From: Anaerolineales bacterium
GTDB taxonomy: Bacteria > Chloroflexota > Anaerolineae > Anaerolineales > UBA11579
Assembly: GCA_021463845.1 (NCBI GenBank)
Contig: JAJTXV010000005.1
Coordinates: forward strand, 67,718-131,717
DNA: 64,000 nt
Reading direction: 5' to 3'
The number at the start of each line of letters is the position of its first letter. Position 1 is the stretch's first letter. The notes beneath the pieces are model-generated. The model made no database searches. It worked only from the letters and a program-made list of their open reading frames with translations, and had not been told where the DNA came from. The translations under genes were made by a program, and so were the position numbers. Positions 9,636 through 27,655 of the stretch are shown here, one piece after another.

Positions 9636-12307
<2,672 letters not shown>

Positions 12308-12308
<1 letters not shown>

Positions 12309-12748
12309 CAGGATGCTCTCACTTTCGGTAACGTCACAGTCAAAAATCCATCTTGGTAGGCAGCTTGAATGCGGTCGGTATTCACTTCACCCGGCAGCTG
12401 CACGGCGCTGAGGAATTCGCCAAAGCGCACTTCCATTTGGTAATAGGCGGCCTGTTCGGCCGGCTGCTGGCGCAGCCCGTACACCGCCATCTCGCGCCCC
12501 TCGATGGCAATGTTGAGCTCGGCCTCCTGCATGCCGGCCACCTCCACGCGCACCACGTAGGCCTGCTCGGTCTCGAGCAGGTCCGTGGGCGGGCGCCACA
12601 GGTGCGGCCGGGCCGCCCACTGGCGTGAGATGGCCGTCAGCCGGAATCGCACTTCCTGGGGGTTACCCCAGGCAGAGCGAGCGGTCAGTTTGTCTATTTC
12701 GGTTTCGTGCATGTACTGCGATGGCGTGCCCCGGTCAGGAGGCAGCAC
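12308..12748 (-). CDS. Hsp20/alpha-crystallin family small heat-shock protein
   Basis: The alpha-crystallin domain reads [23 protein letters not shown]...[16 protein letters not shown]...[13 protein letters not shown]. The stop overlaps the lon start. The start is uncertain (alternative ATG near 12712). Confidence 0.8.
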
Positions 12749-12775
12749 ACTTGCGCTGCGGCCGGGCCGCCGGCT

Positions 12776-13300
12776 TTAGGAAGCCAGGGCGGCCTTGGCG
12801 GCTTCCAGCACGGCAGCATAGTCCGGCTGGTCACCCAGGGCCTTCATGTAATCAGCGTAGGTTACCTTGCCCTTGCGGTCAACCACAAACACGGCGCGGC
12901 GCAGGATACGGCGGTCCTTGATCAGGGCGCCATACGATTCGCCAAAATTGGTGTCGTACGCGTCTGAATACGTGGTGACGCGTTCCACACCGTGCGCGGC
13001 GCACCAGTTGCTGAGCGCATACGGCAGGTCAGTGCTAACGGTGACGATCGCAATGTCAGGGTCCAGCGAGGCGGCTTCTTCATTGAAGCGCTTGGTCTCG
13101 GCCTCACACACGCTGGTATTCAGCGAGGGGACGGCCGCAATAATACGCACCTTGCCTTCGGTAGCTTTCAGCACATCCACCACTGTCCAATCCTTGGCGC
13201 GCAGCGTAAATTCAGGCGCCTGTTGGCCCACTTCAATATCGGGGCCTACAATGGTGACATCCTGCCCTGCCAGTTGCAATAAACCGTTACGTTCCATCAT
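12776..13300 (-). CDS. tpx: thiol peroxidase (atypical 2-Cys peroxiredoxin)
   Basis: 174 aa. The segment AVPSLNTSVCEAETKRFNEEA carries the peroxidatic Cys. Length and layout match Tpx. Confidence 0.9.
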   Translation of the reverse strand: MMERNGLLQLAGQDVTIVGPDIEVGQQAPEFTLRAKDWTVVDVLKATEGKVRIIAAVPSLNTSVCEAETKRFNEEAASLDPDIAIVTVSTDLPYALSNWCAAHGVERVTTYSDAYDTNFGESYGALIKDRRILRRAVFVVDRKGKVTYADYMKALGDQPDYAAVLEAAKAALAS

Positions 13301-13429: not shown

Positions 13430-14623
13430 ATGCGCACCTTATCCTGGTGGCAACACCTCCTGCTGGCCGTGCTGGCTACCCTAGCGCTCTTTGCTATTTT
13501 CACTGTCTTTCAAATGCGCCTGCCCGACCCGGAGGCTTTCAGCCCGCAGGTGTTCTTCGTGGCGGCGGCCCTGCTGCTGGCTGGCACAGTGCGCATGGGG
13601 CCGCACCCGCTGCGCTGGGTGTACTGGCTGATCACTGGCTTGTGCATCTTCATCTTTCTGGACGAGATCGCCTACGGCGTGGAGCTGCTGGACTTCCAGC
13701 CCATCTACATTGAGCGTTACAACTTCTATATCCGCGATCTTCACAGCTCGATCGGCTCCCTGAGCGGCGTGCTGCAGGAGTGGCTGCCAGAGGCCGGGTG
13801 GAACCCGGCGCTGTTCGCTATCCTGATGCGCATCAGCGCCGGCGTGGGTCTGGGCCTGCTGGCGGTGTGGGCGCTGGCCCGCCACGGGCTGCAGGCCGCC
13901 AAGGAGGCGGCCTGGCAGGCGCGCATCCTGCGCCTGACGCTGTGGGCCAGCCTGCTCACCAGCCTCATCACGCTCGGCTATCTATTATGGCTGCCGGCTG
14001 ACCCCAAGAATGCGTTCCTGTTCGGCTTCTCACCGGCGCGCCTGACGGTAGTGGCCGGGCTAGCGCTGGCGGCAGCCCTGGCCGCCTGGCTTCTGCAGCA
14101 GCCAGCACGCTGGCCCGCCTTGCAAGCCCGCATCAGCGCTGTGCTGGGGCGGTATGCCCTGCTCGCCAGCCTGCTGCTGGCGGCGGTGGCGCTGGGCGGG
14201 TTGTATTACCAGATCGACGCCAGCTTCCATTTCCTGCCGGATGATCTGGTGCGCCTGCAGCGTATGATGCCGCCCGTGTTGTGGGCCATGGCGCAAGCGC
14301 TATTGCTCTGGCTGGCCGTCCAATTGTGGACCGGCCGCCTGCGCACGCCGGTCATTACGATGCTGCGCGATACGCAGCAGGCCTTTCACCAGCACCCTGC
14401 TTTCGTCTACGTGGCCTTTGGCCTGCTGGTGATCTTTGTAGCCCAGCTGATCGACCAGAACCTGCTCCCGCTGGACGATATGCTCTACACGCCCAACTAC
14501 CGCATCCAGCATTGGGCTGGTTGGACCGAGGAGACGCTGGAGATGATCGGCGCGTTCTTGTTCCTGATCGCGGCCTTCCTGGTGCCAGGCAAGCCTGCCC
14601 AACAAAAAAGCAGCCGCACGTAG
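13430..14623 (+). CDS. polytopic membrane protein, unknown function
   Basis: 397 aa with about 10 hydrophobic helices. I recognise no motif. Confidence 0.55.
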   Translation: MRTLSWWQHLLLAVLATLALFAIFTVFQMRLPDPEAFSPQVFFVAAALLLAGTVRMGPHPLRWVYWLITGLCIFIFLDEIAYGVELLDFQPIYIERYNFYIRDLHSSIGSLSGVLQEWLPEAGWNPALFAILMRISAGVGLGLLAVWALARHGLQAAKEAAWQARILRLTLWASLLTSLITLGYLLWLPADPKNAFLFGFSPARLTVVAGLALAAALAAWLLQQPARWPALQARISAVLGRYALLASLLLAAVALGGLYYQIDASFHFLPDDLVRLQRMMPPVLWAMAQALLLWLAVQLWTGRLRTPVITMLRDTQQAFHQHPAFVYVAFGLLVIFVAQLIDQNLLPLDDMLYTPNYRIQHWAGWTEETLEMIGAFLFLIAAFLVPGKPAQQKSSRT

Positions 14624-14637
14624 CGGCTGCTTTTTTT
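14604..14637. terminator. bidirectional Rho-independent terminator between convergent genes
   Basis: aaaaaa-gcagccgc(14610-14617)-acgta-gcggctgc(14623-14630)-ttttttt. It serves the + gene ending at 14623 and the minus-strand Ubl operon ending at 14653. Confidence 0.75.
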
Positions 14638-14652
14638 ATTCTCCGAAATCCA

Positions 14653-15789
14653 CTAGTCTTTCAGTTTGATACGCGGCCGCTTGCCGAAGGGCTTGCGGCG
14701 CGGTTTCCCGGCGCCCGCCTTCGGATTGGCCGCCCCCTGCCCCTGGCGCACCGCGCCAACGATCAGCGGCACGGCCACCAGCAGCGCCAGCACTCCCACG
14801 ATGGCAGCGAACTGCGGCCTGGCCGCAGGCTGCTCAACCTCGGGCACCAACCCACCCGGATTATAGCGTTCACCACTTTCCGCCACCGGTTCCCCGCCGC
14901 CGGCAGGCGCTAACGTCACACTGAGCGAGCGATTCACGCCGTCACGCAGCGCAGCGGGCGAAATGTAGCTGAGTTGGTATTCACTCTGCAGCGCATACGA
15001 GTAGCTCTCGTACAGCCGGGTCAGGCTGTCTTCATCTTCGACGTAGCCATACTGCCCGCCGGATTGCGCCGCCAAGTCTTGCAGGCCGGGCTCGTCAATA
15101 CCGCTCATGCGGTCGCCGCCCGGCGTGCCCAGCCCCACCGTGGAGATCGAGGCGCCTTCGTTCTGCACGCGGGCCACCACATCCGGCGCGGCCCACTGGC
15201 TGGAGTTATCCAGGCCATCGGTCAGCACGATGATGGCCTTGCGGCCCTGTACGCCTTCCAGTTCATCCAGCGCGGTCATCAGGGCATTGAACATGGCGGT
15301 GTCATCATCGCCCCGCAGACTGTCGATGGCGCTATGCAGCGCGGCCTGATCAGAGGTCAGCCCCTGCACCACCTGCACCTGCGTGTTGAACGAGATCAAG
15401 CCGCTCTGATCCTGCGGGCGCATGCGCTCCACGAATTGGTGCGCGGCCGCCTTGGCCGAATCCAGCTTGCCGTCCGGGTTCATGCTGCCGGAGACATCCA
15501 TCACCAGCATGGTGGTCAGCGCTTCCACTTCGCCAACCCCCTGGATCTGGTCGAGAGCGATAGGCTGGCCGTTCTCCATGATGACAAAGCGGCTCGGGTT
15601 GACCGGATAGGGGTTTCCGTCCGCGTCCGTCACCGAAACGAAGAACGTGACCCGCGGGAACTGCGAAGTGTCCACCTGGGTGATGCGTACTTGCAGGCCC
15701 TCCTCCTGTGCCAGCGGCGCGAAGGCCAGGCCGGACAGCAGATTGAGCGCCAGAATGAGTCCAAGCGTTAAACGAGTGAGTTTGTGCAT
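14653..15789 (-). CDS. secreted/membrane-anchored von Willebrand factor A (vWA) domain protein
   Basis: N-terminal signal peptide (LTLGLILALNLLSGLAFA). The MIDAS motif is MDVSGSM, followed by LTDGLDN. A C-terminal TM helix FAAIVGVLALLVAVPLIVGAV precedes the basic tail ...KRPRIKLKD. Confidence 0.85.
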   Translation of the reverse strand: MHKLTRLTLGLILALNLLSGLAFAPLAQEEGLQVRITQVDTSQFPRVTFFVSVTDADGNPYPVNPSRFVIMENGQPIALDQIQGVGEVEALTTMLVMDVSGSMNPDGKLDSAKAAAHQFVERMRPQDQSGLISFNTQVQVVQGLTSDQAALHSAIDSLRGDDDTAMFNALMTALDELEGVQGRKAIIVLTDGLDNSSQWAAPDVVARVQNEGASISTVGLGTPGGDRMSGIDEPGLQDLAAQSGGQYGYVEDEDSLTRLYESYSYALQSEYQLSYISPAALRDGVNRSLSVTLAPAGGGEPVAESGERYNPGGLVPEVEQPAARPQFAAIVGVLALLVAVPLIVGAVRQGQGAANPKAGAGKPRRKPFGKRPRIKLKD

Positions 15790-15791
15790 GC

Positions 15792-16649
15792 TTACCTCTT
15801 CTCGTGATAGACAAGTTGAGTGTTACCGACGCGGATAGCCTGCTCATCCAGCAAGCGGGCCTGCTCCACCTTGCGCCCGTTGATGAAAGTGCCCTTCTGG
15901 CTCATGTCGCGAATATTCATGTGGGTGTCGCCGCCGCTCAGCATGGCGTGCTGCGGGTCAATGTCAGGGTCAGGCAGCACAATGTCTGCCTTCAGGGCGC
16001 TGCTGCCCACATAGGCGGTAGGCCCATTGGCATGGATGAATTTGTCGAGCACGAACTCAGTGCCTTTGAGCTTGCCGCTCACCACTTCCAGCCAAGCCTT
16101 CGAAAGCAGCAGTACCACCAGCGCGATCAGCGCACCGATGGCGGCGCCCAGCAGGCCCAGGCCGATGGCCTTGCCAATGAGTGCATCCGCCAGGCGCGCC
16201 CGCGCCAGCTCCAGCAGGGCGCCGCCTACTGCGCCGCCCAGCAAGCCGCCCAGGGCGGGCTTCCACATCTGCGCCCCGCTGCTGAAACCCAGCCCGGCGC
16301 CGATGAAGCCGCCGAACACCGCCCAGCCCAGCGCGCGAGTCCAGGCTTCGCCGCCCAGGGTTTGGAAGGCGGCCTCCGCCAGCGGCAGGCCAATGGCGCC
16401 GCCCACCAGGCCGAACAGGCCGTTGGTCAGGCCGGCCCGCACCGCATAACCTGGGCTGCGCAGGGCGGCGCCTTCGCTCATGCCGATCAGGCTGCCGATG
16501 CAGAAGCCGATCAGCCCACCCACCACGACTTCACTGAGATAGACGTTCTGGGTGAACGACAGGCCCAGCACATTGCTGACCTGCCAGCCGATCAACCCGC
16601 CGATCGCCCCCAGCAGGGTGTAGTAATACAAACGTGTCATCCGGTTCAT
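15792..16649 (-). CDS. glycine-zipper membrane protein with C-terminal FHA domain
   Basis: The N-terminal ~190 aa are Gly-rich TM segments (GxxxG repeats). The C-terminal FHA domain reads YVGSSALKADIVLPDPDIDPQHAMLS...GTFINGRKV...IRVGNTQLV. The start overlaps the JAB stop (ATGA). Confidence 0.8.
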   Translation of the reverse strand: MNRMTRLYYYTLLGAIGGLIGWQVSNVLGLSFTQNVYLSEVVVGGLIGFCIGSLIGMSEGAALRSPGYAVRAGLTNGLFGLVGGAIGLPLAEAAFQTLGGEAWTRALGWAVFGGFIGAGLGFSSGAQMWKPALGGLLGGAVGGALLELARARLADALIGKAIGLGLLGAAIGALIALVVLLLSKAWLEVVSGKLKGTEFVLDKFIHANGPTAYVGSSALKADIVLPDPDIDPQHAMLSGGDTHMNIRDMSQKGTFINGRKVEQARLLDEQAIRVGNTQLVYHEKR

Positions 16650-17614
16650 TGTTTGTTCTCCGTTTGGGGATCGTGCGCAACCGGAGGCTGCGCGGGAGTT
16701 TTCGTCTCAGCCTGAGACTTTGTCTCAGCTTTGGGATGTGCGGGAGGCTTGACCTCAACGCGGGGCTTTGACTCTGCCTGAGGCTTCGCCTCAGGCTTGC
16801 GGGCCGCGTCCGCCTGCGGCTTGCGAGCCGCGGGCGTAGCCGTCACGGTTTTCACCTCGACCGGGCGCGTATCCGAGATCTCTGCGCGGCTGGGCTGAGG
16901 CTTAGGGCTGGCCGGCGGCTGCGCCGCCGCTGCAGCCGGTTTTGGCTGCGGCTCAGGCCGCAAGTTAGCCCAGTCCACCACGCTGTCCATGCTGCTGGAA
17001 TGCAGCTCGTAGAAGCCGCTGTAGCGGCGCGGCGACAGCTCGCCATCCTTACGCATGAACAAGCCGGCCTGGCGGGTATGCGGCTCGACCACCAGCGCCA
17101 CCTGCCAGGGCTGCGGAAAGAAGTGATCGTGCAGCCAGGTGTCATAGCCTGAAAGAAAAATGCCCATGCGCGGGTGGGTGTGATACCAGCCCACCACGCA
17201 CTTGTTCTCATACTGCTCTTCGAGGGCTGAGAGCATCGCCACCTGGCTGTCATGTGTAAAGGTAAGGAAGGTGCTGCCTGAGCGCACTTGCTGCGCCGGC
17301 AGCAGAGCTTCCACCACCACGAACTCCTTGCCAGCCCGCCCATCCCGGCACCAGCGCCCCGCCAGCCAGCCGCCGACCTCGTTGTCCATGTCACTGGCGG
17401 CGTGCAGCGCGATGGTCTTGATCACGCTCTGCGTGAAGAAGACCGGCAGCGCCGGCTGGGCGCTGTCCTCGCCTGCCGCCAGCCAGCGTTGGGAGCGGCT
17501 CAGCGGCAGGCGGGCACGGCGCGGGGCGCCGAGCGGGTTTTGCAAACCCTGCGGCTTCTTGGAGGCGGAGGTGGATGTGCTCATGGCATTGGCCTTGCGC
17601 TGCCGGGTGGCCAT
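16646..17614 (-). CDS. JAMM/MPN+ metalloprotease (JAB deubiquitinase-like) with Pro/Lys/Ala-rich tail
   Basis: The Glu lies in NEVGGWLAG. GWYHTHPRMGIFLSGYD gives H-x-H-x7-S-x2-D, the complete JAMM motif. The C-terminal ~110 aa are low complexity. Confidence 0.9.
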   Translation of the reverse strand: MATRQRKANAMSTSTSASKKPQGLQNPLGAPRRARLPLSRSQRWLAAGEDSAQPALPVFFTQSVIKTIALHAASDMDNEVGGWLAGRWCRDGRAGKEFVVVEALLPAQQVRSGSTFLTFTHDSQVAMLSALEEQYENKCVVGWYHTHPRMGIFLSGYDTWLHDHFFPQPWQVALVVEPHTRQAGLFMRKDGELSPRRYSGFYELHSSSMDSVVDWANLRPEPQPKPAAAAAQPPASPKPQPSRAEISDTRPVEVKTVTATPAARKPQADAARKPEAKPQAESKPRVEVKPPAHPKAETKSQAETKTPAQPPVAHDPQTENKQ

Positions 17615-17648
17615 GTTGCGAATGCAACATGGCCACCCAAATCAGCAA

Positions 17649-17915
17649 TTACCCGGCGGTGACGTCAGCCGTGATCATCAGGCGGTCGTCGGCGGGGACA
17701 CCGGCGGCCTCCAGGGTCTCGTCTTCCTTCAGCTCGCGGCCCAGGGCCTTGCTGTCCAGACGGTAGCCCATCGGGCGGCCGTCAGGACCGGTGGTGGGCA
17801 GCTCCAGCGTGGTGGCCAGCTCCGGGATCAGTTCCTTCACTTCCACATCATTGGGCACCTCAGCGGTGCGGCTGCCCCCAGACGGCAAAACTACGGTCAC
17901 AGGAATGTCAGGCAT
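17649..17915 (-). CDS. free ubiquitin-like beta-grasp protein ending ...TADVTAG-stop
   Basis: 88 aa with an AAGGAG RBS upstream. The strand/helix pattern is beta-grasp-like (IPVTVVLPSGGSRTAEVPNDVEVKELIPELATTLELP...). It is a paralogue of the N-terminal domain of the adjacent E2 fusion, and its terminal residue is Gly. Confidence 0.8.
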   Translation of the reverse strand: MPDIPVTVVLPSGGSRTAEVPNDVEVKELIPELATTLELPTTGPDGRPMGYRLDSKALGRELKEDETLEAAGVPADDRLMITADVTAG

Positions 17916-17950
17916 GTCTTAATCTCCTTTGCGTCTAGCAAAAATTTGGA

Positions 17951-18802
17951 TTACTTCAACTTGATGCGCGGCTTCGGCTTCGCCGAGGCGGGCGTCTTCT
18001 TCAGATGCACACGCTCCGGGCGCAAAAGCTCACGCGTATCCACAGGGAAGAATTTGGGATTCTTTTTGCGGTAGCCGCGGCTCCAACGGGCCGCCTCGGC
18101 ATCCCAAGGGAAGGGCGGCTTGGTGGGGTCATCGTGAAAGTTCTTGTACTGCACCATCTCGCCGATCATCAGCACCAGGCGGTCCAGCGAACGGCTGGCG
18201 GTCCACCAGGCTGCATCCACACACACTGTGCCATTCAGATGGTTGATGTTGGGGTGCCACACCGGCGTCAGCCACTTCATGCCCGGCCAGCGCTGCGGAT
18301 ACTGGTTGTGCAGATAGATCTCCACCTGGTGCTTGTCTCCCAGCATGGGCTCGCCTTTGTGATTGACCGCGATCACGCCTTTGCACTTATAGGTGACGAT
18401 GTAGGTCTCGGGCGGCATTTTTGGATTGGCCGAGATGGCCTTGAACTCGATGAGATCGCTCTGCGCGGCCAGCTCCTGCATGCGCTGCAAGTCCGCCTTC
18501 AGACGGCGGATGCGCGGGCTCTCGCCCAGCTTGACCGCGCCGGCGGTGATGTCCGCCGTCAGGATCAGGCGGTCCTCGGCGGGCACTTCTGCGCTCGCCA
18601 GCGTCTCGGTTTCCTTCAGCTCGCGGCCCAGGGCCTTGCTGTCCAGCCGGTAGCCCATCGGGCGGCCGTCTGGCCCTACCGTGGGCAGGCCGAGCAGCGA
18701 GATCAGCTCCACCACCAGCTCACGTACCGGGGCATCATCAGGCAGCTCGGCTTTGCGAGCGCCGCCGTTTGGCAGGATGATGGTCAATTCGATATCAGCC
18801 AT
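17951..18802 (-). CDS. Ubl::E2 fusion (N-terminal ubiquitin-like domain + UBC-fold ubiquitin-conjugating enzyme)
   Basis: Residues 1-87 resemble the free Ubl and end TADITAG. The E2 core is YLHNQYPQRWPGMKWLTPVWHPNINHLNGTVCVD, i.e. the eukaryote-type HPN triad plus the catalytic Cys. A GAGGAG RBS lies upstream. Confidence 0.9.
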   Translation of the reverse strand: MADIELTIILPNGGARKAELPDDAPVRELVVELISLLGLPTVGPDGRPMGYRLDSKALGRELKETETLASAEVPAEDRLILTADITAGAVKLGESPRIRRLKADLQRMQELAAQSDLIEFKAISANPKMPPETYIVTYKCKGVIAVNHKGEPMLGDKHQVEIYLHNQYPQRWPGMKWLTPVWHPNINHLNGTVCVDAAWWTASRSLDRLVLMIGEMVQYKNFHDDPTKPPFPWDAEAARWSRGYRKKNPKFFPVDTRELLRPERVHLKKTPASAKPKPRIKLK

Positions 18803-18819
18803 ACAATGCTCTCCTCAAC

Positions 18820-19683
18820 TCAATTCTGGAAGGCGTGCGGCACCTGGCACACGCCCGTGATCTCCCAGCAGTCTGCGTGGTGCCAGGTCTTGCAGACCTT
18901 GCAGATCTTGACGCCGCGCGGGTCGCGCTTGGTCACCGGCTCCAGGCAGTAGGGGCACATGTGGCGTTCCTGCGCGCTGAGCGTGATGCCGCTGCCGCGG
19001 GCCGCACGCTTGCGAGCCGGCCGCGCCGAGCGGATCTTGCGCGTGGTTGGCGTAGGCGTAAAGAACTTGGATATCCCAGCCCGAGCACGTTGCGCGAACG
19101 AAGGGCGCGCTGCACTGCGCGGTTGGCCGCGGCTCGGCTGCCGGCTGCGCGCCCGTGGCGCAGCCGGCGCAGAGCCAACGCTGACGCGCGGCCGGGGCGC
19201 AATGTTGACTTCTACGTCTACCTCCCCGCGCGGTTCCACCATCACGGTGCGGCGGCGCGGCGCCCAGGCCGCCTGGCCCGCGCCCACCGCCAGGCCCATG
19301 ACCAGCAGTTGAATGGCGGCATCCAGCGGTGTGGCGATGGCATAGCTGCGCAGCAGGTTCAGGCCCACGAAGCCCAGGGTCAGCGGGCTGAGCACCGCCA
19401 GGGCGATCAGCCCGGCGAAGGCGGCCGTAGCCGCCCGCAGGGCCGGGCTGCGCCCGGCCAGCACCCGGCGGCTCATGAAGCTGGCCGCCAGGCCGATGCC
19501 GATAATGACAACGAACTTGAGCAGGAACGGCGAGAAGCTGGTGGGCAGCACGAACAGCAGGGTCAGGCCCAGCCCCACCAGGGTGGCAAACAACACACAC
19601 AGGGTGATACGCCCAAGCGCGCTGTCTACGAACTTGCTTTCATCTCCCAGTAAAAATCGTCTCATCGCTACCGCTTGCATCAT
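18820..19683 (-). CDS. four-TM membrane protein with C-terminal RING/PHD-like zinc finger (putative E3)
   Basis: Four hydrophobic helices are followed by an Arg/Pro-rich linker. The finger is CPYC-x14-CKVC-x3-HH-x2-C-x6-C-x3-H (eight-ligand cross-brace pattern), matching my recollection of the TM-linked prokaryotic RING family (Pfam Prok-RING_1). Confidence 0.8.
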   Translation of the reverse strand: MMQAVAMRRFLLGDESKFVDSALGRITLCVLFATLVGLGLTLLFVLPTSFSPFLLKFVVIIGIGLAASFMSRRVLAGRSPALRAATAAFAGLIALAVLSPLTLGFVGLNLLRSYAIATPLDAAIQLLVMGLAVGAGQAAWAPRRRTVMVEPRGEVDVEVNIAPRPRVSVGSAPAAPRARSRQPSRGQPRSAARPSFAQRARAGISKFFTPTPTTRKIRSARPARKRAARGSGITLSAQERHMCPYCLEPVTKRDPRGVKICKVCKTWHHADCWEITGVCQVPHAFQN

Positions 19684-19686
19684 GGC

Positions 19687-21306
19687 TTAGTCGATCAGGT
19701 GCACCCGGCCGCTGGCCTGTGCTTCGCCCTGCACCGCCTCGCCCAGGCGCACGCGCGGGGCATGCAGGCCAGGCACGGCCTCATCAAAATCGTTGAAGTG
19801 CAGCGCGGTGGGCAAGTCACCGCTCAATTCATAGAAACGAAATTCTGCGCCATTTGTAGCGCGCACAATATGCAGCGGCGGCACCCCAACGCTGGCCAGC
19901 GTGCGCTCCAGGAAGTCTTCGCGGCCGGTGATGGTATGGGTCAGGTCAACCTCGCGCATCTCGCCGCAGCTGGGGCAGTGTCCTGCTTCGAAGCTCACGT
20001 CTGACAGCGGCTTGAGCACATGCTCCACCGTGTTGCAGGCGGCGCAATTGAGCGCCAGCACCAGCTCCTGATCCAGCTCCAGCACCGTGTCCGCCCCCAG
20101 GTCGCCGCGGGCGATCTCAAGCAGCTCGGCCAGCGTGTTGGCCTCGGCGCGCAGCGGCAGCTCGGTCACATCGCCATAGATCCAGTGGCTCTCGCACTCC
20201 GCATCCGGCAGGTAGGCGGTGGTGTGCATGAAATTGGTGTAGCCGTTGTAGTGCAACACCTTGCCCGGCTCGACCGGCATGTTGTGGATCAGCTTGAGCG
20301 CCTCTTGCGATTGCATCGCGCCGATGATCGAAGCGATCGTCGGCGTGGTGGGCACCTTGCCCAGCAGAATATTCTGGCGCGCCAGCAGCGGGCAGGAGTA
20401 GCGCATGGCCAGGTCACGGCGGGCCTGCTCGGTCAGCGTGCATTCAAAGCACGCGCCTTCGCCAGGCACAAAGACGCGCGCCAGGCCGAGCAGTTCTTGA
20501 ATTGCGCCATCGACCCACGGCTTGTTCATCCAATGCGCAAAGCGGTTGACCGCCAAGCGCGCCTCGCGGTTGTCCAGACAGCCCACGATGACGTCCATGC
20601 GGCGGAACACGCCCAGGCCAATATCGGTGGTGACGTCGCCGTGCAGGTACTGCACGCGCACATCCGGGTTGATCTCCACTGCCCGCGCCGCGGCCAACTG
20701 GGCTTTCTCGCGGCCGCGATCTTTCTCGCGGAACAGAATCGAGCGGCTCAGGTTGGCCGCTTCCACTTTGTCAAAGTCCACAATGTACAGATTGCCGATG
20801 CCCATCAGGGTCAGATTCTTGATGACCTCGTTGCCCAGCGCCCCGGCTCCCACCACCATCACACGGGCGTTCTGCACCTTCTCGCGCTCCCACCAACTGA
20901 TGAACTCGAAGGTGCCCAAACGGTCAGACTTGAGGTTGGGGATGTGCAGCGGTTTCTCTTTGGCCACCGGCAGCCGCTTGGGGCCGTCGGCCGCTTTGCG
21001 CTTCTGCGCCCACTTGGCGGGCGCGGGCGGCGCAACCTCGGCCGCCAGTTGGCGCGCCTTGAGCATGCGCGCCGAGCTCAGCTCATTTACGAACCAGCCC
21101 ACGCCCTGCTGCGCATCCAGCAGCCCGGCTTCGGAAAGGATCTTGAGCGCCTCGCGCAGCGAGGAGCGCCCGACCCCCAGCTCCTTGATGAGGTCACGCT
21201 CAGCTGGCAGCTGGCTGCCGGCCGGGTATTGGCCCTGCAGCAGGCCGGAGGCCAGGCGGCCGGCGACAAGTTCGGGGACGGATTTGCGCGGGATGGAATT
21301 GGGCAT
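19687..21306 (-). CDS. GntR-type winged-HTH fused to ThiF/E1-like ubiquitin-activating (adenylating) enzyme
   Basis: The N-terminal segment LPAERDLIKELGVGRSSLREALKILSEAGLLDAQQGVGWFV is a GntR HTH. The E1 core includes VMVVGAGALGNEV, VDFDKVEAANLSRSILF and LDNREARL. There are CxxC pairs (CFEC, CAAC, CPSC), a candidate catalytic Cys in RYSCPLL, and a possible C-terminal UFD-like domain. Confidence 0.9.
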   Translation of the reverse strand: MPNSIPRKSVPELVAGRLASGLLQGQYPAGSQLPAERDLIKELGVGRSSLREALKILSEAGLLDAQQGVGWFVNELSSARMLKARQLAAEVAPPAPAKWAQKRKAADGPKRLPVAKEKPLHIPNLKSDRLGTFEFISWWEREKVQNARVMVVGAGALGNEVIKNLTLMGIGNLYIVDFDKVEAANLSRSILFREKDRGREKAQLAAARAVEINPDVRVQYLHGDVTTDIGLGVFRRMDVIVGCLDNREARLAVNRFAHWMNKPWVDGAIQELLGLARVFVPGEGACFECTLTEQARRDLAMRYSCPLLARQNILLGKVPTTPTIASIIGAMQSQEALKLIHNMPVEPGKVLHYNGYTNFMHTTAYLPDAECESHWIYGDVTELPLRAEANTLAELLEIARGDLGADTVLELDQELVLALNCAACNTVEHVLKPLSDVSFEAGHCPSCGEMREVDLTHTITGREDFLERTLASVGVPPLHIVRATNGAEFRFYELSGDLPTALHFNDFDEAVPGLHAPRVRLGEAVQGEAQASGRVHLID

Positions 21307-21334
21307 GGTGTGGGCGGCTCTTTATTGTGGTTTG

Positions 21335-21347
21335 TTGGTCAGACCAA
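21335..21347. promoter_or_regulatory. perfect palindrome TTGGTC-A-GACCAA, candidate GntR/FadR-type operator
   Basis: It lies 29-41 nt upstream of the E1-fusion start codon, in the divergent intergenic region. It matches the generic GntR operator form (GT-Nx-AC) and the TGGTC.GACC core known for FadR. Confidence 0.45.
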
Positions 21348-21460
21348 TATACCACGCCGCCCTATCAAGTCAATACAGCTTAGCTTTCAATTCTGTCAGC
21401 CACTAGGCTGAGAGGAATTGGCAGACCGCGAACGTTACGCTATTCACAAACGGAGGGACT

Positions 21461-22411
21461 ATGAAGATCGTTCTGGCAGGCGGCAGCGGACAGGTCGGCA
21501 CCTTGCTGGCCCGGCACTACCACGCCAAAGGCGACGAGGTGACGGTACTGACCCGCCGCCCCACCACGATGCCCTGGCGCACCGCACACTGGGACGCCGA
21601 GACCCTCGGTCCCTGGGCCCAGGAGCTGGAGGGCGCCGACGCAGTCTTCGGCCTGGCCGGCCGCAGCGTGAACTGCCGCTACACGCCCAAGAACAAACGC
21701 CTCATCATGGATTCGCGGGTAGATTCCACCAGCGTCCTCGGCCAGGCGATCGCGCAAGCCACCCGCGCGCCGCGCGTGTGGATCCAGGCGAGCACTGCCA
21801 CCATTTATGGCCACAGCTACAACCGTCCCAACAATGAAGACGGCGCCCTAGGCGGCGAGGAGCCGGACGCGCCGCATGCCTGGCGCTTCAGCATTGATGT
21901 CGCCAAAGCCTGGGAGCAGGCCGCCGACGCGGTCGAAACGCCGCGCACCCGCAAGGTCATCACGCGCACCGCCCTGACCCTCAGCCCGGACCGCGGCGGC
22001 ATCTTCGACACCCTGCTGAGCCTGGTGCGCCGCGGCCTGGGCGGCCGGGTGGCCAGCGGCCGCCAGATGGTCTCGTGGCTGCACGACGCTGACTACATCG
22101 CCGCGGTGGATTGGCTGATAGCCAACCAACACATGAGCGGCATCGTCAACCTGGCCGCGCCCAACCCGCTGCCGATGGACGATTTCATGCGCACCCTGCG
22201 CCGCGCCTGGGGCATGCCCATCGGCCTGCCCTCCACCCGCTGGATGCTGGAGATCGCATCATTCTTGATGCAAACAGAAACGGAGCTGATCCTCAAGAGC
22301 CGCTATGTGCTGCCCGGCCGCCTGCTGGCCGAAGGCTTTGAGTTCCAGTATCCGCTGTGGCCTATTGCGGCTGAGGACTTATGCACGCGCTGGCGAGCAA
22401 GGTCTATGTAA
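21461..22411 (+). CDS. SDR-fold epimerase family protein (YfcH/TIGR01777-like, DUF1731 C-terminus)
   Basis: MKIVLAGGSGQVGTLLARH is a Rossmann GxxGxxG motif. The protein is 316 aa, with a GGAGGG RBS upstream. Confidence 0.8.
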   Translation: MKIVLAGGSGQVGTLLARHYHAKGDEVTVLTRRPTTMPWRTAHWDAETLGPWAQELEGADAVFGLAGRSVNCRYTPKNKRLIMDSRVDSTSVLGQAIAQATRAPRVWIQASTATIYGHSYNRPNNEDGALGGEEPDAPHAWRFSIDVAKAWEQAADAVETPRTRKVITRTALTLSPDRGGIFDTLLSLVRRGLGGRVASGRQMVSWLHDADYIAAVDWLIANQHMSGIVNLAAPNPLPMDDFMRTLRRAWGMPIGLPSTRWMLEIASFLMQTETELILKSRYVLPGRLLAEGFEFQYPLWPIAAEDLCTRWRARSM

Positions 22412-22526: not shown

Positions 22527-22600
<74 letters not shown>

Positions 22601-24994: not shown

Positions 24995-27655
24995 TTACGA
25001 AAACTTCAGAGGCTCCAGAGCCACCAAGTCTTCAAATTCATCCGGCTTTAGCTTGGTAAATTCCTCTTGCAAAATTTTGTGAAAGACCCACTGGGTTGCT
25101 GTTAACTTTGAGGCGTTTTCGCACCAAGCAATTGCGGCGCGATCTTTATGCTGCACGTCCAAATCTTCTCGCCCCTTGGTCTCAATTAGGTGATGGACTC
25201 CATCTTTCGTTACCGCAACAAAATCCGGATGATAAGCCCTTAGATTCGCTCGGCTATCAATGTACGGAATCGAAAAGTGCAAATAATCTTCCGAAAGCTT
25301 TGCAAAGCTAACCACTTCGCTCGCTCCTTCAAGAAATCGGCAAAAGTCATATTCGAATGTATTGCCAGCCGCGCATAAATTGAAGACTGTTTTATTGGCT
25401 TTAAGCGTGGACTTGCTCCAGGGAAAAGGCTCAGTAGAGGAAACAGGCAGACCGTCGTTCTCTAGCTGAGGCTCATTCTGCTGCACAACCCGTTCCCGGA
25501 GAACTTGCACAAATGCCTTTTCGGTAACAAACTCTGCCACGCCGCTGGAAATAGCCTGTATCATTTGAGGAGTATCGAGGTCAACTTTTTCGCCAAAAGC
25601 GTAGTCTTGGAGAAACTCGCGTATCTTCGGCACTAAGGCCGCAAACTGCGAAGGCAGCTTAAGTGTGGATGCAATCCGCTTGGCATAGTAGCCAATGACT
25701 TCCTGAGAGGTACCTACCTCCGGAATTTTGTATTCCCGTTCAATCATTTTTTGAAGAGTAATAATGTCATAGCCCTCGTAGCGGAATAATTTCGCCGCTT
25801 CATCATCCTGCTTCTTGGGCAAGGTAGGAACACTAATTTTGGAGACATCCAGGGCAGCAATCTCGTCAGTCAATGTAGTTTTGCGGGTCAAGATAGGCGA
25901 AATCACAGGGAGGACGATGTCTCTGTCTAGTTTTTTAGGGTCGGGATAAATACCCTCAATTTTGGGAGGCTCTTTGTCCAAATCAACGGTATCGAATTCA
26001 AGGCCCTCAATCTTTTCGAGGTCTTCGACGAACTTGATGAACTTGTCGTTGCCAATTACGTCCAACGTCTCCTGATAAGTGCTTTCCTCACCCACTCTGG
26101 CGCCGCGGAACATGAGGCGCAGCCCACGGCCGATTGCCTGCTCAGGCAAGATGTTCGCCTTCGACGTATAAGGTCGCAGCCCCACGACCACTGTTACGCT
26201 TTGTACATCCCAGCCTTCGCGCAGCATAAGTACGCTGACTACACAGTTGACCGGGCTTTTGGGATCATCAATTTCTTTCGCGATAAGGCGGGCTTCTTCT
26301 ACGTCTTTTTTTCTAACTTCGCCAGTAGTGTCGGTATGGATAACGCTCAACTTATCGCCGCCAAACTCATCGGGGTATTTGCTTCTTAGATAATCTCCCA
26401 CTTCGTCCGCATCAGCTACGCTGTTCATCATAATGAACAGCACAGGCTTGCGGCGGAAACCCATCAGCTTGTCGCGGTATTCCTGCCAGCGCTTAACGCC
26501 CGCGGTAAGGTACATCTGATACTTTTGGCTGGCTATGTCAGAACGGCGCTCTCGCAAACCCTTCGCGACTCCCTTGAACGGACGTTTGACAACGCGATCC
26601 ATAATAGCTTGCTTCAGCGGGTAGTCATAAACCGTCCATGGAAACAAGGCGCCTTTAGAAAACCGCGGAGTAGCAGACATGTCCAGTTGCACTACGCCGG
26701 GTTGCTTTTTGGCTTCCAGTCCTTCGTGCAGTCGCCGAATGGTGCGGCTCCATTCGCTATCTTCTTCATGTGTATGGTGAGCCTCATCATTGGCTACCAG
26801 CACTCTATTGCCACGTTCCAAAACACGCTCAAAAAACGGATCCGGCTCGTCCAAATTCGGCCGCGGTTTTGGGCCAAGCACACTTTGCAGCGCGTCCGGC
26901 TCCGCATCTGGCCTGCTACGAGCTTCATATAGCTGTTGAATATTGGTTACATACAGCGCCCCTTGCGAATGGGCGCGTTCAGGCTCACCACGCATGTAGC
27001 TCTGGTGATCCCAGTAGATTCGTAACTCCGGGGGGATTACCGGATCCTGGGTGAAAATCCGCCCTCCCTCGAAATCATTTTTAAGACGCTCAAAAACAAT
27101 GACGTTAGGCGCGATCAAGAGCGTGGTTGCGGCAAAGCGAGCCGGGTCTTCCACGGCGTTAAAGTACTGCCAAGCGATGGCCAGAGATATGACCTTGGTC
27201 TTGCCCGTCCCGGTCGCCAGCTTGAGGCAGTAGCGCGGGAATAAATCATATTGAAGCAATCTCAGGTCTTTTTGGGTGGAGTAGCTCTCAATCAATTCTT
27301 TGGAGCGGAACTTCCCAGCGACCTCATACAGGTAAACAATGGTTTCAATGGCCTCGCGTTGAAAGGGATGGTAGCTAAACCGTTGCCCATTCGGGAGAAA
27401 GTGGTCGTTGAAGAACCAGTGATTAAGCAGCTTTTCTGTTGTATCTGTAATGCCGGGATAATCTCGTTTGCGCCATTCCTGGACGGCCTCTTGAATTTTT
27501 GGTACGCACGGCGCAGTAGTCACCTCGGCAGTGAACATCTTGCCCTGTGCCGCGGCAGGCTTTGCCTTGCGTACAGCCTTCTTGCGCATCGGTGCCGCCT
27601 TGGGAATTGCACGCTTGGCTTTTGCTTTTGCCTGCTTTGCCTTCTTCTTCGCCAT
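24995..27655 (-). CDS. type III restriction enzyme Res subunit (SF2 helicase + PD-(D/E)xK nuclease)
   Basis: 886 aa. Walker A is LATGTGKTKV, DEAH box is VANDEAHH, and a helicase C motif is LREGWDVQSV. The C-terminal nuclease motif is YHPDFVAV...HLIETKGRED. The gene is AT-rich relative to its flanks and lies directly downstream of the methyltransferase gene. Confidence 0.85.
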   Translation of the reverse strand: MAKKKAKQAKAKAKRAIPKAAPMRKKAVRKAKPAAAQGKMFTAEVTTAPCVPKIQEAVQEWRKRDYPGITDTTEKLLNHWFFNDHFLPNGQRFSYHPFQREAIETIVYLYEVAGKFRSKELIESYSTQKDLRLLQYDLFPRYCLKLATGTGKTKVISLAIAWQYFNAVEDPARFAATTLLIAPNVIVFERLKNDFEGGRIFTQDPVIPPELRIYWDHQSYMRGEPERAHSQGALYVTNIQQLYEARSRPDAEPDALQSVLGPKPRPNLDEPDPFFERVLERGNRVLVANDEAHHTHEEDSEWSRTIRRLHEGLEAKKQPGVVQLDMSATPRFSKGALFPWTVYDYPLKQAIMDRVVKRPFKGVAKGLRERRSDIASQKYQMYLTAGVKRWQEYRDKLMGFRRKPVLFIMMNSVADADEVGDYLRSKYPDEFGGDKLSVIHTDTTGEVRKKDVEEARLIAKEIDDPKSPVNCVVSVLMLREGWDVQSVTVVVGLRPYTSKANILPEQAIGRGLRLMFRGARVGEESTYQETLDVIGNDKFIKFVEDLEKIEGLEFDTVDLDKEPPKIEGIYPDPKKLDRDIVLPVISPILTRKTTLTDEIAALDVSKISVPTLPKKQDDEAAKLFRYEGYDIITLQKMIEREYKIPEVGTSQEVIGYYAKRIASTLKLPSQFAALVPKIREFLQDYAFGEKVDLDTPQMIQAISSGVAEFVTEKAFVQVLRERVVQQNEPQLENDGLPVSSTEPFPWSKSTLKANKTVFNLCAAGNTFEYDFCRFLEGASEVVSFAKLSEDYLHFSIPYIDSRANLRAYHPDFVAVTKDGVHHLIETKGREDLDVQHKDRAAIAWCENASKLTATQWVFHKILQEEFTKLKPDEFEDLVALEPLKFS

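What the first reader, a model, noticed from the sequence alone, without database searches (positions are those of the whole stretch)
17649..18802. Duplicated Ubl: a free copy and a copy fused to the E2, both ending TAD(V/I)TAG, with a 59/60-nt identical block
Seen: the free Ubl (88 aa) and residues 1-87 of the E2 fusion are clear paralogues. They share GPDGRPMGYRLDSKALGRELKE.ETL...VPA.DRL..TAD.TAG. At the DNA level, 17724-17783 and 18611-18670 are identical at 59 of 60 positions, while the flanking codons have diverged. The free copy terminates exactly after Ala-Gly. In the fusion the same TAG is followed by AVKLGESPRIRRLK and the UBC domain. Inference: (a) the identical block suggests recent gene conversion or strong constraint on that surface; (b) the JAMM protease may cleave after TAG to release a second Ubl from the E2, analogous to Ub-precursor processing, or the fused Ubl may act in cis as a non-covalent regulator; (c) the reactive C-terminus is Ala-Gly rather than the Gly-Gly of ubiquitin.
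Basis: partly seen in the sequence, partly recalled or inferred. Interest (0 to 1): 0.66.

Follow-up and report, generated by a model that had tools for sequence, protein, structure and literature searches.

The report
Ubiquitin-like protein duplicated, one copy E2-fused
An Anaerolineales bacterium carries a complete eukaryote-style ubiquitin-tagging operon with two sister tag proteins, one free and one fused to the E2 enzyme; the fused one is probably cut loose by the operon's own protease, and the near-identical DNA block they share is ordinary strong conservation, not a recent copying event.

Summary
An 88-aa free Ubl (17649-17915, -) and residues 1-88 of a Ubl::E2 fusion (17951-18802, -) are paralogues. 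Both end in TAD(V/I)TAG, at Gly88 rather than Gly87. They share a block identical at 59 of 60 nt.

Both genes sit in a seven-gene operon: GntR-E1, membrane RING-like E3, Ubl::E2, Ubl, JAB, membrane FHA, vWA. That operon is conserved in order in all 80 Anaerolineales genomes fetched. Fused and free Ubls form two separate, old orthologue groups.

The block encodes the motif GPDGRPxxYRLDSKALGREL, invariant or nearly so in both paralogues in every genome. Seventeen of its 19 degenerate codons are the window's preferred codon. Paralogue blocks compared between different genomes differ by as few as 2 nt. Constraint therefore explains the identity, and recent gene conversion is not needed.

Comparative evidence favours cleavage after Gly88:
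- The TAG tail is invariant, and the next residue is always A, G or S.
- The linker that follows is variable.
- Relatives have free Ubls with short extensions after AG.
- Relatives have unfused E2s starting just after the linker.
- Some operons have E1 and JAB but only the fused Ubl.

Cleavage itself is untested. The operon type was predicted in 2011 and, as far as I could find, has not been characterised experimentally.

The parts
19687..21306 (-). E1: N-terminal GntR winged-helix domain (res 14-73), ThiF adenylation domain (res 135-371, GAGALG at 153), and a Cys-rich C-terminal region (CFEC 286, CAAC 421, CPSC 444; candidate catalytic Cys305).
   Evidence: Pfam ThiF 7e-54 and GntR 3.9e-17. 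Best PDB sequence matches are the active adenylation domains of UBA7 and UBA1, 8.5e-32. Motif positions.
18820..19683 (-). Membrane-anchored RING-like E3: about 5 hydrophobic segments, then a C-terminal C243-x2-C246...C261-x2-C264-x3-H268-H269-x2-C272-x6-C279-x3-H283 module.
   Evidence: Pfam Prok-RING_1 matches at 1.5e-4, 22.1 bits, below the 29.1-bit cutoff. The Cys/His pattern is conserved in 71 orthologues. Hydrophobic segments.
17951..18802 (-). Ubl::E2 fusion, 283 aa.
   Evidence: Pfam YukD 9.2e-10 plus UQ_con 4e-11. The same architecture is seen in more than 100 close database relatives.
18539..18802 (-). Fused Ubl domain, residues 1-88, ending TADITAG (Gly88 codon 18539-18541).
   Evidence: The AF2 model shows a beta-grasp fold at pLDDT 75-90. 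Foldseek's closest structures are Caldiarchaeum ubiquitin, ubiquitin and SUMO.
18521..18538 (-). Junction linker AVKLGE (res 89-94). Length and sequence vary among orthologues, but the first residue is always A, G or S. This is the proposed JAB cleavage site, between Gly88 and Ala89.
   Evidence: linker of 4-8 or more residues; residue after Gly88 is A 56, G 11, S 9 of 76. In the AF2 model residues 85-90 have pLDDT below 50.
17954..18520 (-). UBC E2 core, residues 95-283, with H183-P184-N185 and catalytic Cys194. It begins with the SPRIRRLK helix.
   Evidence: A profile search against PDB aligns WHPNINHLNGsVCVD with UBE2K WHPNISSVTGAICLD. HPN and C194 are invariant in 51 sequences. Unfused relatives start at this position.
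17649..17915 (-). Free Ubl, 88 aa, ending TADVTAG followed by a stop. It has its own AAGGAG ribosome-binding site.
   Evidence: Pfam YukD 2.1e-12. The stop follows Gly88 directly in 75 of 76 orthologues. Sequence read.
17724..17783 (-). Conserved block, free copy (codons 45-64, DGRPMGYRLDSKALGRELKE).
18611..18670 (-). Conserved block, fused copy (codons 45-64).
16646..17614 (-). JAB/JAMM metallopeptidase with Glu79 and H145-x-H147-x7-S155-x2-D158, followed by a low-complexity P/A/K/E-rich tail.
   Evidence: Pfam JAB 2.9e-8 and Prok-JAB 3.2e-8. Best PDB matches are AMSH, Caldiarchaeum Rpn11-like, Rpn11 and CSN5. Motif positions.
15792..16649 (-). Membrane protein with a C-terminal FHA domain.
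   Evidence: Pfam FHA 1.2e-9 and Yop-YscD_cpl 7e-12. Present in the same position in the related loci.
14653..15789 (-). vWA protein: signal or transmembrane segment, vWA domain with MIDAS DVSGS at 98, C-terminal transmembrane segment, and a basic tail.
   Evidence: Pfam VWA_2 2.3e-19. Features. Conserved position in the related loci.
21346..21373 (-). The only sigma-70-like promoter match in 14300-21700 (TTGACT-16-TATATT with TG), about 40 nt upstream of the E1 start.
   Evidence: The count is no higher than in shuffles, so the position is only suggestive.
17954..17971 (-). C-terminal PRIKLK motif of the E2.
19690..19710 (-). C-terminal GRVHLID motif of the E1.
14656..14676 (-). C-terminal PRIKLKD motif of the vWA protein.

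Best explanation
The two genes encode an old pair of paralogous ubiquitin-like modifiers. They belong to a complete ubiquitin-type conjugation operon inherited vertically in Anaerolineales: E1, UBC-type E2, membrane RING-like E3, JAB peptidase, plus membrane FHA and vWA partners.

The shared 60-nt block encodes the most constrained surface of the Ubl, GPDGRPxxYRLDSKALGREL. That surface is most likely the one read by the machinery both paralogues share (E1, E2, JAB). The block is nearly identical at the DNA level because the amino acids are fixed and both copies use the preferred codon almost everywhere.

Proposed mechanism:
1. The free Ubl is made ready to use, with Gly88 as its C-terminus.
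2. The Ubl::E2 protein is a pro-protein. The JAB peptidase cuts between Gly88 and the small residue that follows, releasing a second Ubl and an E2 with a free N-terminal helix.
3. The E1 adenylates Gly88 and passes the Ubl as a thioester to E2 Cys194.
4. The membrane RING-like protein directs transfer to lysines of still unknown targets.
5. The JAB peptidase also reverses conjugation.

Shown here: the domain identities, intact catalytic motifs, conservation patterns and operon architectures. Inferred: cleavage, activation, conjugation and the targets.
For: - Anatomy and motifs.
- Operon order E1, RING, Ubl::E2, Ubl, JAB, FHA, vWA recurs across the 80 related loci wherever the contig reaches. 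The Ubl pair is present wherever the region can be read.
- Fused and free Ubls are reciprocally monophyletic, 76 of 76 each. Both are strongly conserved: mean orthologue identity 77% for fused and 81% for free.
- Block: the amino acids are invariant or nearly so in both paralogues. 17 of 19 degenerate codons are the top codon. Cross-genome paralogue comparisons give as few as 2 differences. The block also shows higher codon identity than the rest of the gene between distant orthologues, 0.45 versus 0.38.
- Processing, junction features: the fused tail is TADITAG in 74 of 76 and TTDITAG in 2. The next residue is only A, G or S. The linker varies in length and sequence. The junction is flexible in the AF2 model.
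- Processing, free relatives: free Ubls carry short extensions after x-A-G: STRG, GGCRG, MNSLG, NS and CPQGGK.
- Processing, unfused E2s: they begin at SPRxRRL and have a Ubl gene directly upstream.
- Processing, fused-only operons: operons with E1, JAB and Ubl::E2 have no other Ubl in a six-frame HMM search (L083, L084, L087, L088).
- Processing, permanently fused relatives: some distant Ubl-E2 proteins lack AG altogether (P0149, P0175, P0208). The tail is therefore not needed for the fusion itself.
- Precedent: Caldiarchaeum Rpn11 cuts its ubiquitin precursor exactly after the terminal glycine (PMC6043591). BilC cleaves a BilA-GFP fusion, pre-processing BilA to expose its C-terminal glycine (PMC10557695).
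Against: - There is no biochemical or proteomic evidence for cleavage, activation or conjugation in this family.
- The fused copy has been kept as a distinct orthologue group with its own helix-1 face, for example Ser35/Leu36 against Thr35/Ser36. That would also fit a dedicated role as a cis domain.
- Permanently fused Ubl-E2 relatives without AG exist.
- The fused-only operons are read from contigs of 4-18 kb, so a free Ubl gene elsewhere in those genomes cannot be excluded.
- Three free relatives end in Gly after the extension (STRG, GGCRG, MNSLG). In those proteins the reactive glycine might be the last residue rather than the AG glycine.
- The RING-like domain scores below Pfam's cutoff.
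Confidence: 0.55

Rival explanations
1. The fused Ubl is never released. It acts in cis as a non-covalent domain of the E2. It might dock the E2 onto the E1 or the E3, bind the E2 backside, or bind Ubl-recognising partners. Only the free Ubl would then be conjugated.
For: The fused copy is a separate, long-maintained orthologue group with its own conserved helix-1 residues. Distant relatives P0149, P0175 and P0208 have an N-terminal Ubl joined to the E2 without any AG. The fusion is stable in every genome sampled.
Against: The seven-residue tail ending in AG is invariant in the fused copy, and it is followed by a small residue and a variable linker. Fused-only operons still carry an E1 and a JAB. 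Free homologues upstream of unfused E2s look like precursors. A purely structural domain has no obvious need for an intact activation tail.
Confidence: 0.35
2. The 59/60 block results from a recent gene conversion between the two copies in this lineage.
For: Codon identity of 18 of 19 is far above the 8.4 expected from codon usage. In the window the two blocks differ by 1 nt, while each differs by 3-7 nt from its orthologues in the five closest genomes. Across 76 genomes, within-genome codon identity is slightly higher than cross-genome identity, +0.049 in the block.
Against: The same small within-genome excess occurs outside the block (+0.025), as a shared genomic codon usage would give. Cross-genome paralogue comparisons are nearly as close: 2 nt to L008, 3 to L010 and L036. 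In this clade any paralogue pair differs by about 2-7 nt, so 1 nt is the tail of that distribution (rough Poisson estimate from my own arithmetic: P about 0.09 for a mean near 4). In both copies 17 of 19 degenerate codons are simply the preferred codon. Outside the block the copies group strictly by type.
Confidence: 0.1
3. The operon is a mobile anti-phage defence system of the Bil or CBASS type, and the Ubl pair serves to tag phage proteins.
For: Experimentally studied bacterial Ubl conjugation systems act in defence (PMC10557695). Distant relatives of this E2 are fused to TIR domains (P0149, P0208) or lie next to an EAD8-TPR protein.
Against: The operon is found in one fixed order in 80 of 80 fetched Anaerolineales loci. 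A scan of one genome per species gave 321 confirmed matches. Flanking synteny is shared among close relatives. This pattern indicates vertical inheritance. PADLOC models match only the generic JAB and E1 domains, not the Ubl, E2, RING, FHA or vWA proteins.
Confidence: 0.15

Closest known systems
Prokaryotic E1/E2/RING/JAB operons with YukD-like Ubls, predicted by Burroughs, Iyer and Aravind (Mol Biosyst 2011). The Pfam Prok-RING families come from this work. I cite it from memory of the abstract; the paper could not be opened here.
   Same: The same parts list: ThiF-type E1, UBC E2 with an HPN motif, a treble-clef RING-like protein, a JAB peptidase and a Ubl that matches Pfam YukD. The prediction that YukD-like Ubls are conjugated fits this operon.
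   Different: I could not check whether that paper describes the free-plus-fused pair, the AG terminus or the constant FHA and vWA partners. In the papers I could search, I found no experimental study of this family.
Caldiarchaeum subterraneum and Asgard ubiquitin operon (Ub, E1, E2, small RING, Rpn11-like). Reconstituted in PMC5654768; precursor processing shown in PMC6043591.
   Same: A compact operon with all five activities. The Ub precursor is trimmed by the JAMM peptidase to expose the terminal glycine. The Ubl model here is structurally closest to Caldiarchaeum ubiquitin, and the JAB protein matches CsRpn11.
   Different: This system is bacterial. The terminus is Ala-Gly, not Gly-Gly. 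There are two Ubl paralogues, and for one of them the 'propeptide' is the whole E2. The RING-like protein is membrane-anchored, the E1 carries a GntR domain, and FHA and vWA membrane proteins are constant partners.
BilABCD (Bacterial ISG15-like) systems, PMC10557695.
   Same: Separate E1, E2, Ubl and JAB-type peptidase. The peptidase pre-processes the Ubl and cleaved a Ubl-GFP fusion.
   Different: The gene order differs and Bil has no E3. Bil is a sparsely distributed defence system. PADLOC models do not match the Ubl or the E2 here.
Eukaryotic ubiquitin precursors (polyubiquitin; Ub fused to ribosomal proteins eL40 and eS31). Established textbook knowledge.
   Same: A modifier is translated as an N-terminal fusion and released by cleavage after its terminal glycine, giving equal amounts of modifier and partner.
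   Different: The partner here would be the modifier's own E2, and cleavage has not been demonstrated.
YukD/EsaB of type VII secretion systems.
   Same: The sequence family: Pfam YukD at 48.1 and 39.6 bits against a 27-bit cutoff.
   Different: YukD was reported not to be covalently conjugated to other proteins (stated in PMC1779556). It is linked to ESAT-6 secretion genes, and none are present in this operon.

Membership tests
Prokaryotic E1/E2/RING/JAB/YukD-like-Ubl operon (Burroughs et al. 2011 type) | ThiF-family E1 resembling the adenylation domains of canonical eukaryotic E1s | tested here: met
   Pfam ThiF 7e-54. Best PDB matches are UBA7 and UBA1 at 8.5e-32.
Prokaryotic E1/E2/RING/JAB/YukD-like-Ubl operon (Burroughs et al. 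2011 type) | UBC-fold E2 with an HPN motif and a catalytic cysteine | tested here: met
   UQ_con 4e-11. HPN 183-185 and C194 align with the UBE2K active site and are invariant in 51 sequences.
Prokaryotic E1/E2/RING/JAB/YukD-like-Ubl operon (Burroughs et al. 2011 type) | RING-type binuclear treble-clef E3 in the same operon | tested here: inconclusive
   Prok-RING_1 scores 22.1 bits against a 29.1-bit cutoff. An eight-ligand Cys/His pattern is conserved in 71 orthologues. No reliable structure model was obtained.
Prokaryotic E1/E2/RING/JAB/YukD-like-Ubl operon (Burroughs et al. 2011 type) | JAB/JAMM peptidase with an intact metal site | tested here: met
   Pfam JAB and Prok-JAB. Glu79 and HxH-x7-S-x2-D at 145-158.
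Prokaryotic E1/E2/RING/JAB/YukD-like-Ubl operon (Burroughs et al. 2011 type) | YukD-like beta-grasp Ubl with a C-terminal glycine | tested here: met
   Both copies match Pfam YukD above the cutoff. The AF2 model is a beta-grasp. The free copy ends in Gly in 75 of 76 orthologues.
Prokaryotic E1/E2/RING/JAB/YukD-like-Ubl operon (Burroughs et al. 2011 type) | Actual covalent conjugation of the Ubl to targets | not testable with these tools
   This needs biochemistry or proteomics.
BilABCD | Gene order Ubl-E2-DUB-E1 without an E3; proteins recognised by defence-system models | tested here: not met
   The order here is E1, RING, Ubl::E2, Ubl, JAB. PADLOC gives no hit for the Ubl or the E2.
Type II CBASS (Cap2/Cap3) | E1-E2 fusion protein acting on a CD-NTase | tested here: not met
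   E1 and E2 are separate genes, and none of the operon's seven proteins is a CD-NTase. The PADLOC E1-E2 models match only the E1 adenylation part.
Bub (6E/DUF6527) operons | Diverged DUF6527-type E2 | tested here: not met
   The E2 matches the canonical Pfam UQ_con family and eukaryotic E2 structures.
YukD/EsaB of type VII secretion | Linkage to ESAT-6/FtsK-type secretion genes; not conjugated | tested here: not met
   The sequence family is matched, but the neighbours are E1, E2, RING and JAB, with no secretion genes in the operon.
Ubl precursors processed by a JAMM peptidase (CsUb-pre, BilA) | Residues beyond the reactive glycine that the cognate peptidase removes | tested here: inconclusive
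   The sequence signature is present: an invariant tail, a small next residue, a variable linker, relatives with 2-6 residue extensions, and fused-only operons. Cleavage itself was not tested.

The most novel reading that the evidence does not exclude
Ubl::E2 is a dual zymogen. One cut by the JAB peptidase both matures a second, functionally distinct modifier and unmasks the E2's N-terminal helix, which E2s use to bind E1 and E3. Anaerolineales would then run a two-modifier, membrane-anchored ubiquitin system, comparable to ubiquitin and NEDD8 in having two related tags. It would be a vertically inherited cellular signalling pathway coupled to an extracytoplasmic vWA sensor and an FHA protein. 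E1, E2 and the vWA tail would be assembled through the C-terminal RIKLK-type peptide they share.
Probability: 0.2. Interest if true: 0.75.

Novelty: new member of a known kind. Interest (0 to 1): 0.5.

Why it matters
Most experimentally studied bacterial ubiquitin-like conjugation systems are sporadic phage-defence modules without an E3. This one has all five eukaryote-style activities, and its E1, E2 and JAB are most similar to the canonical eukaryotic enzymes. It is kept in one fixed order across a whole bacterial order. That argues for a cellular rather than a defence role, and it gives a tractable bacterial counterpart to the archaeal systems used to discuss the origin of ubiquitin signalling. 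One comparative survey stated that none of the bacterial genomes it analysed contained a complete ubiquitin toolkit (PMC4327156).

If the E2 is indeed the 'propeptide' of a Ubl, that would be a new form of precursor logic that ties modifier supply to E2 supply.

Tried and rejected
- Single-sequence AlphaFold2 of Ubl::E2 gave an unusable model, pLDDT 37. With a 51-sequence alignment, the Ubl domain and the first E2 helix were usable, but the E2 active-site region stayed below pLDDT 50. I therefore draw no conclusion on whether the Ubl packs against the E2.
- A PDB sequence search with the free Ubl returned only a spurious tenascin match.
- PADLOC gave nothing beyond generic JAB and E1 hits.
- Burroughs et al. 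2011 and the 2012 Frontiers in Bioscience review are not held in the library. What they say about this operon is cited from memory only.
- Literature searches for an experimental study of a Ubl-E2 fusion or of an Anaerolinea ubiquitin system found none.
- I tested gene conversion as the cause of the block in four ways and rejected it as the main cause: codon usage expectation, clade distance matrices, within- versus cross-genome comparison, and GC-matched cross-genome comparison.
- I considered an RNA element in the block. It is unlikely: Rfam found only one tRNA in the window, and in other genomes, mostly lower-GC ones, block identity falls as low as 38-50 of 60.
- The apparent absence of the free Ubl in L065 is due to a masked run of N.
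Full report
**Observation**

On the minus strand, 17649-17915 encodes an 88-aa protein ending TADVTAG followed by a stop. 17951-18802 encodes a 283-aa protein. Its first 88 residues align without gaps to the free protein and end TADITAG. They are followed by AVKLGESPRIRRLKA and a UBC domain.

The stretches 17724-17783 and 18611-18670 match at 59 of 60 positions. The one difference is a synonymous Arg52 codon. The repeat finder reports the wider 182-nt repeat at 80% identity.

**Surroundings**

Both genes lie in a tightly packed minus-strand operon from 21306 to 14653. In order:
- E1 with an N-terminal GntR winged helix and a ThiF domain.
- A protein with about five membrane segments and a C-terminal Cys/His module that matches Prok-RING_1 below Pfam's cutoff.
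- Ubl::E2.
- The free Ubl.
- A JAB/JAMM peptidase with Glu79 and HxH-x7-S-x2-D.
- A membrane protein with a C-terminal FHA domain.
- A vWA protein with a MIDAS motif, flanked by an N-terminal signal or membrane segment and a C-terminal membrane segment.

Both Ubls match Pfam YukD above the cutoff. The E2 has HPN (183-185) and Cys194, aligned with the active site of UBE2K. The E1's best solved relatives are the active adenylation domains of UBA7 and UBA1. The JAB's best solved relatives are AMSH, the Caldiarchaeum Rpn11-like enzyme, Rpn11 and CSN5. The only promoter-like site on the operon strand lies just upstream of the E1 gene.

**Conservation**

A scan of one genome per species found 321 confirmed matches to the fusion protein. 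The best 80 are almost all annotated as Anaerolineales or other Chloroflexota assemblies. All 80 loci show the same gene order as far as the contig reaches. The pair 'Ubl::E2 followed by an 88-aa Ubl' is present wherever the region can be read. Three loci end at a contig edge, and one has a masked run of N inside the free Ubl gene.

In a neighbour-joining tree of 152 Ubl sequences, fused and free copies form two pure clades of 76. Outside the block, orthologues in the window's clade differ at about 6-35 of 204 nt and paralogues at about 58-79. The duplication therefore predates the radiation of these genomes, and the genes as wholes do not evolve in concert. Both copies are under strong purifying selection: mean orthologue identity is 77% for fused and 81% for free.

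**The identical block**

The block encodes part of GPDGRPxxYRLDSKALGREL. This motif is invariant or nearly so in both paralogues in all genomes.
- Under independent draws from the window's codon usage, 8.4 of 19 degenerate codons should match. 18 do (P about 4e-6).
- However, 17 of the 19 are the window's most frequent codon in both copies.
- In other genomes the block matches at 38-57 of 60 positions, with the highest values mostly in GC-rich genomes.
- The window's block is almost as close to the other paralogue in different genomes: 2 differences to L008, 3 to L010 and L036, and 2-7 within its own clade.
- Across 76 genomes, within-genome codon identity exceeds cross-genome identity by 0.049 in the block and by 0.025 outside it. 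A shared genomic codon usage would give this pattern.
- Distant orthologues also share more codons in the block than outside it, 0.45 against 0.38.

I conclude that the block reflects fixed amino acids plus preferred codons. A small recent conversion tract in this lineage cannot be excluded but is not needed.

**The C-terminus and the junction**

In 76 genome pairs the fused copy ends TADITAG (74) or TTDITAG (2), and the free copy ends TAD(V/I)TAG.
- The stop codon follows Gly88 in 75 free copies. One (L075) continues with CPQGGK.
- In the fusion, the residue after Gly88 is always A, G or S.
- The next 4-8 or more residues vary in length and sequence, up to a conserved [STN]PRxRR[LM] helix start.
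- In the AlphaFold2 model built on 51 sequences, residues 1-84 form a confident beta-grasp, residues 85-90 fall below pLDDT 50, and a helix begins at residue 96.
- Foldseek places the Ubl nearest to Caldiarchaeum ubiquitin (27-30% identity), ubiquitin, SUMO and a bacterial Bil Ubl.

**Wider family**

A search of 1.8 billion representative proteins gave 1657 hits. Sequences and contexts show the following architectures:
- E2s without a Ubl that begin exactly at the SPRxRRL helix. Where the short contig extends upstream (L082, L085), a Ubl gene lies directly upstream, with tails TAG-STRG and TAG-GGCRG.
- A free Ubl plus Ubl::E2 in the opposite order (L086 with TAG-MNSLG; L089 with VAG-NS).
- Ubl::E2 or Ubl-Ubl-E2 proteins that keep x-A-G at each junction.
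- Operons with E1, a RING-like protein, Ubl::E2 and JAB in which a six-frame HMM search finds no other Ubl (L083, L084, L087, L088). L088 also carries a vWA-Prok-RING fusion and an FHA protein.
- A few distant Ubl-E2 proteins whose N-terminal Ubl has no AG at all (P0149, P0175, P0208).

The AG tail is thus not required for the fusion as such. Where it is kept, it looks like a processing site.

**Mechanism**

The best-supported reading is that Ubl::E2 is a pro-protein. The JAB peptidase cuts after Gly88 and releases a second modifier and the E2. The E1 adenylates Gly88 of either Ubl and passes it to Cys194 of the E2. The membrane RING-like protein directs transfer to lysines of unknown targets, and the JAB peptidase also removes the tag.

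There is direct precedent for the processing step. Caldiarchaeum Rpn11 removes nine residues from its ubiquitin precursor, cutting exactly after the terminal glycine (PMC6043591). BilC cleaves a BilA-GFP fusion, pre-processing BilA to expose its C-terminal glycine (PMC10557695).

Shown here: domain identities, intact catalytic motifs, conservation patterns and operon architectures. Inferred: cleavage, activation, conjugation, targets and biological role. The shared invariant block is most simply the surface that both paralogues present to the common machinery.

**Rivals**

1. The fused Ubl stays attached and works in cis. This is favoured by its separate, long-kept identity and by the AG-less fusions. 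It is disfavoured by the invariant tail, the small next residue, the variable linker and the fused-only operons.
2. Recent gene conversion caused the block. This is disfavoured as set out above.
3. The operon is a mobile defence system. Some distant relatives carry TIR domains or sit next to an EAD8-TPR protein. This operon, however, is order-wide with fixed synteny, and PADLOC does not recognise it.

**Comparison with what is known**

The parts list matches the prokaryotic E1/E2/RING/JAB operons with YukD-like Ubls predicted by Burroughs, Iyer and Aravind in 2011. I cite that paper from memory because it could not be opened. A 2023 preprint still lists the RING-containing bacterial operon families as uncharacterised. 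A 2015 survey reported that none of the bacterial genomes it analysed contained a complete ubiquitin toolkit.

The operon works like the Caldiarchaeum ubiquitin operon and like Bil in its processing logic. It differs in the Ala-Gly terminus, the two paralogues, the E2 serving as 'propeptide', the membrane-anchored RING-like protein, the GntR-E1 fusion, and the constant FHA and vWA partners. It is not a Bil, CBASS or Bub system. By context it is also not a type VII secretion YukD.

**Verdict**

The operon is a new member of a predicted but experimentally unstudied kind of system. It comes with a specific, testable pro-protein hypothesis and with natural controls among its relatives.

Noticed in passing
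window 17954-17971 (E2), 19690-19710 (E1), 14656-14676 (vWA), all on the minus strand: The E1, Ubl::E2 and vWA proteins all end in the same short basic-hydrophobic motif: GRVHLID, PRIKLK and PRIKLKD. A second, similar copy often lies about 10 residues upstream. Of the 328 window ORFs of at least 60 aa, only these three end this way, and the motif is conserved in the sampled orthologues. It may be a shared docking or membrane-binding peptide, possibly one that binds the very acidic Ubls.
   Followed up: partly
window 21085-21267 (-), E1 residues 14-73: The E1 carries an N-terminal GntR-type winged-helix domain. Most Anaerolineales orthologues appear to keep it, judging by their length of about 540-590 aa. 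The shorter E1s of distant relatives (about 400 aa) lack the extra length. This could mean the operon regulates its own transcription, or that the domain has been reused for another purpose.
   Followed up: no
P0149 (624 aa) and P0208 (437 aa): Distant relatives of this E2 are fused to TIR domains. P0149 reads Ubl (no AG), E2, YukD-type Ubl ending VAG, then a Cys-initiated segment (CFLESARVLLPDG...) and a TIR domain. The Cys-initiated segment resembles the start of a Hint/intein-type autoprocessing domain. That resemblance is my impression from the sequence and was not tested.
   Followed up: partly
L088 9430-10989 and 11018-11938: A distant operon with a Ubl-Ubl-E2 protein also encodes a vWA protein fused to a Prok-RING_1 domain, and an FHA protein. 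The link between vWA, FHA, RING and this E2 family is therefore old and not specific to Anaerolineales.
   Followed up: partly
L075 free Ubl, about 7255-7277: This is the only one of 76 free Ubls that reads past Gly88 (TADITAG-CPQGGK). It may be a natural precursor form or a sequencing error.
   Followed up: no
window 16646-16960 (-), JAB residues about 215-322: The JAB protein has a C-terminal tail of about 100 residues rich in Pro, Ala, Lys, Glu and Gln. The tail is present only in the window's close relatives. JAB length ranges from about 215 to 380 aa among orthologues.
   Followed up: no
window 9636-13300 (-): Genes for Lon protease, Hsp20 and a peroxiredoxin lie downstream of the operon. 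Hsp20 and the peroxiredoxin keep this position in several of the closer relatives (L001, L002, L006, L007, L011, L013, L014, L022, L034). These are stress-related neighbours, but there is no evidence of a functional link.
   Followed up: no
window 22527-22600 (-) and 24995-27655 (-): The first is a tRNA gene, the only Rfam match in the window. The second is an 886-aa helicase of the type III restriction res-subunit kind (ResIII plus Helicase_C). Between them lie two uncharacterised genes (138 and 521 aa) that accompany the operon only in close relatives.
   Followed up: no
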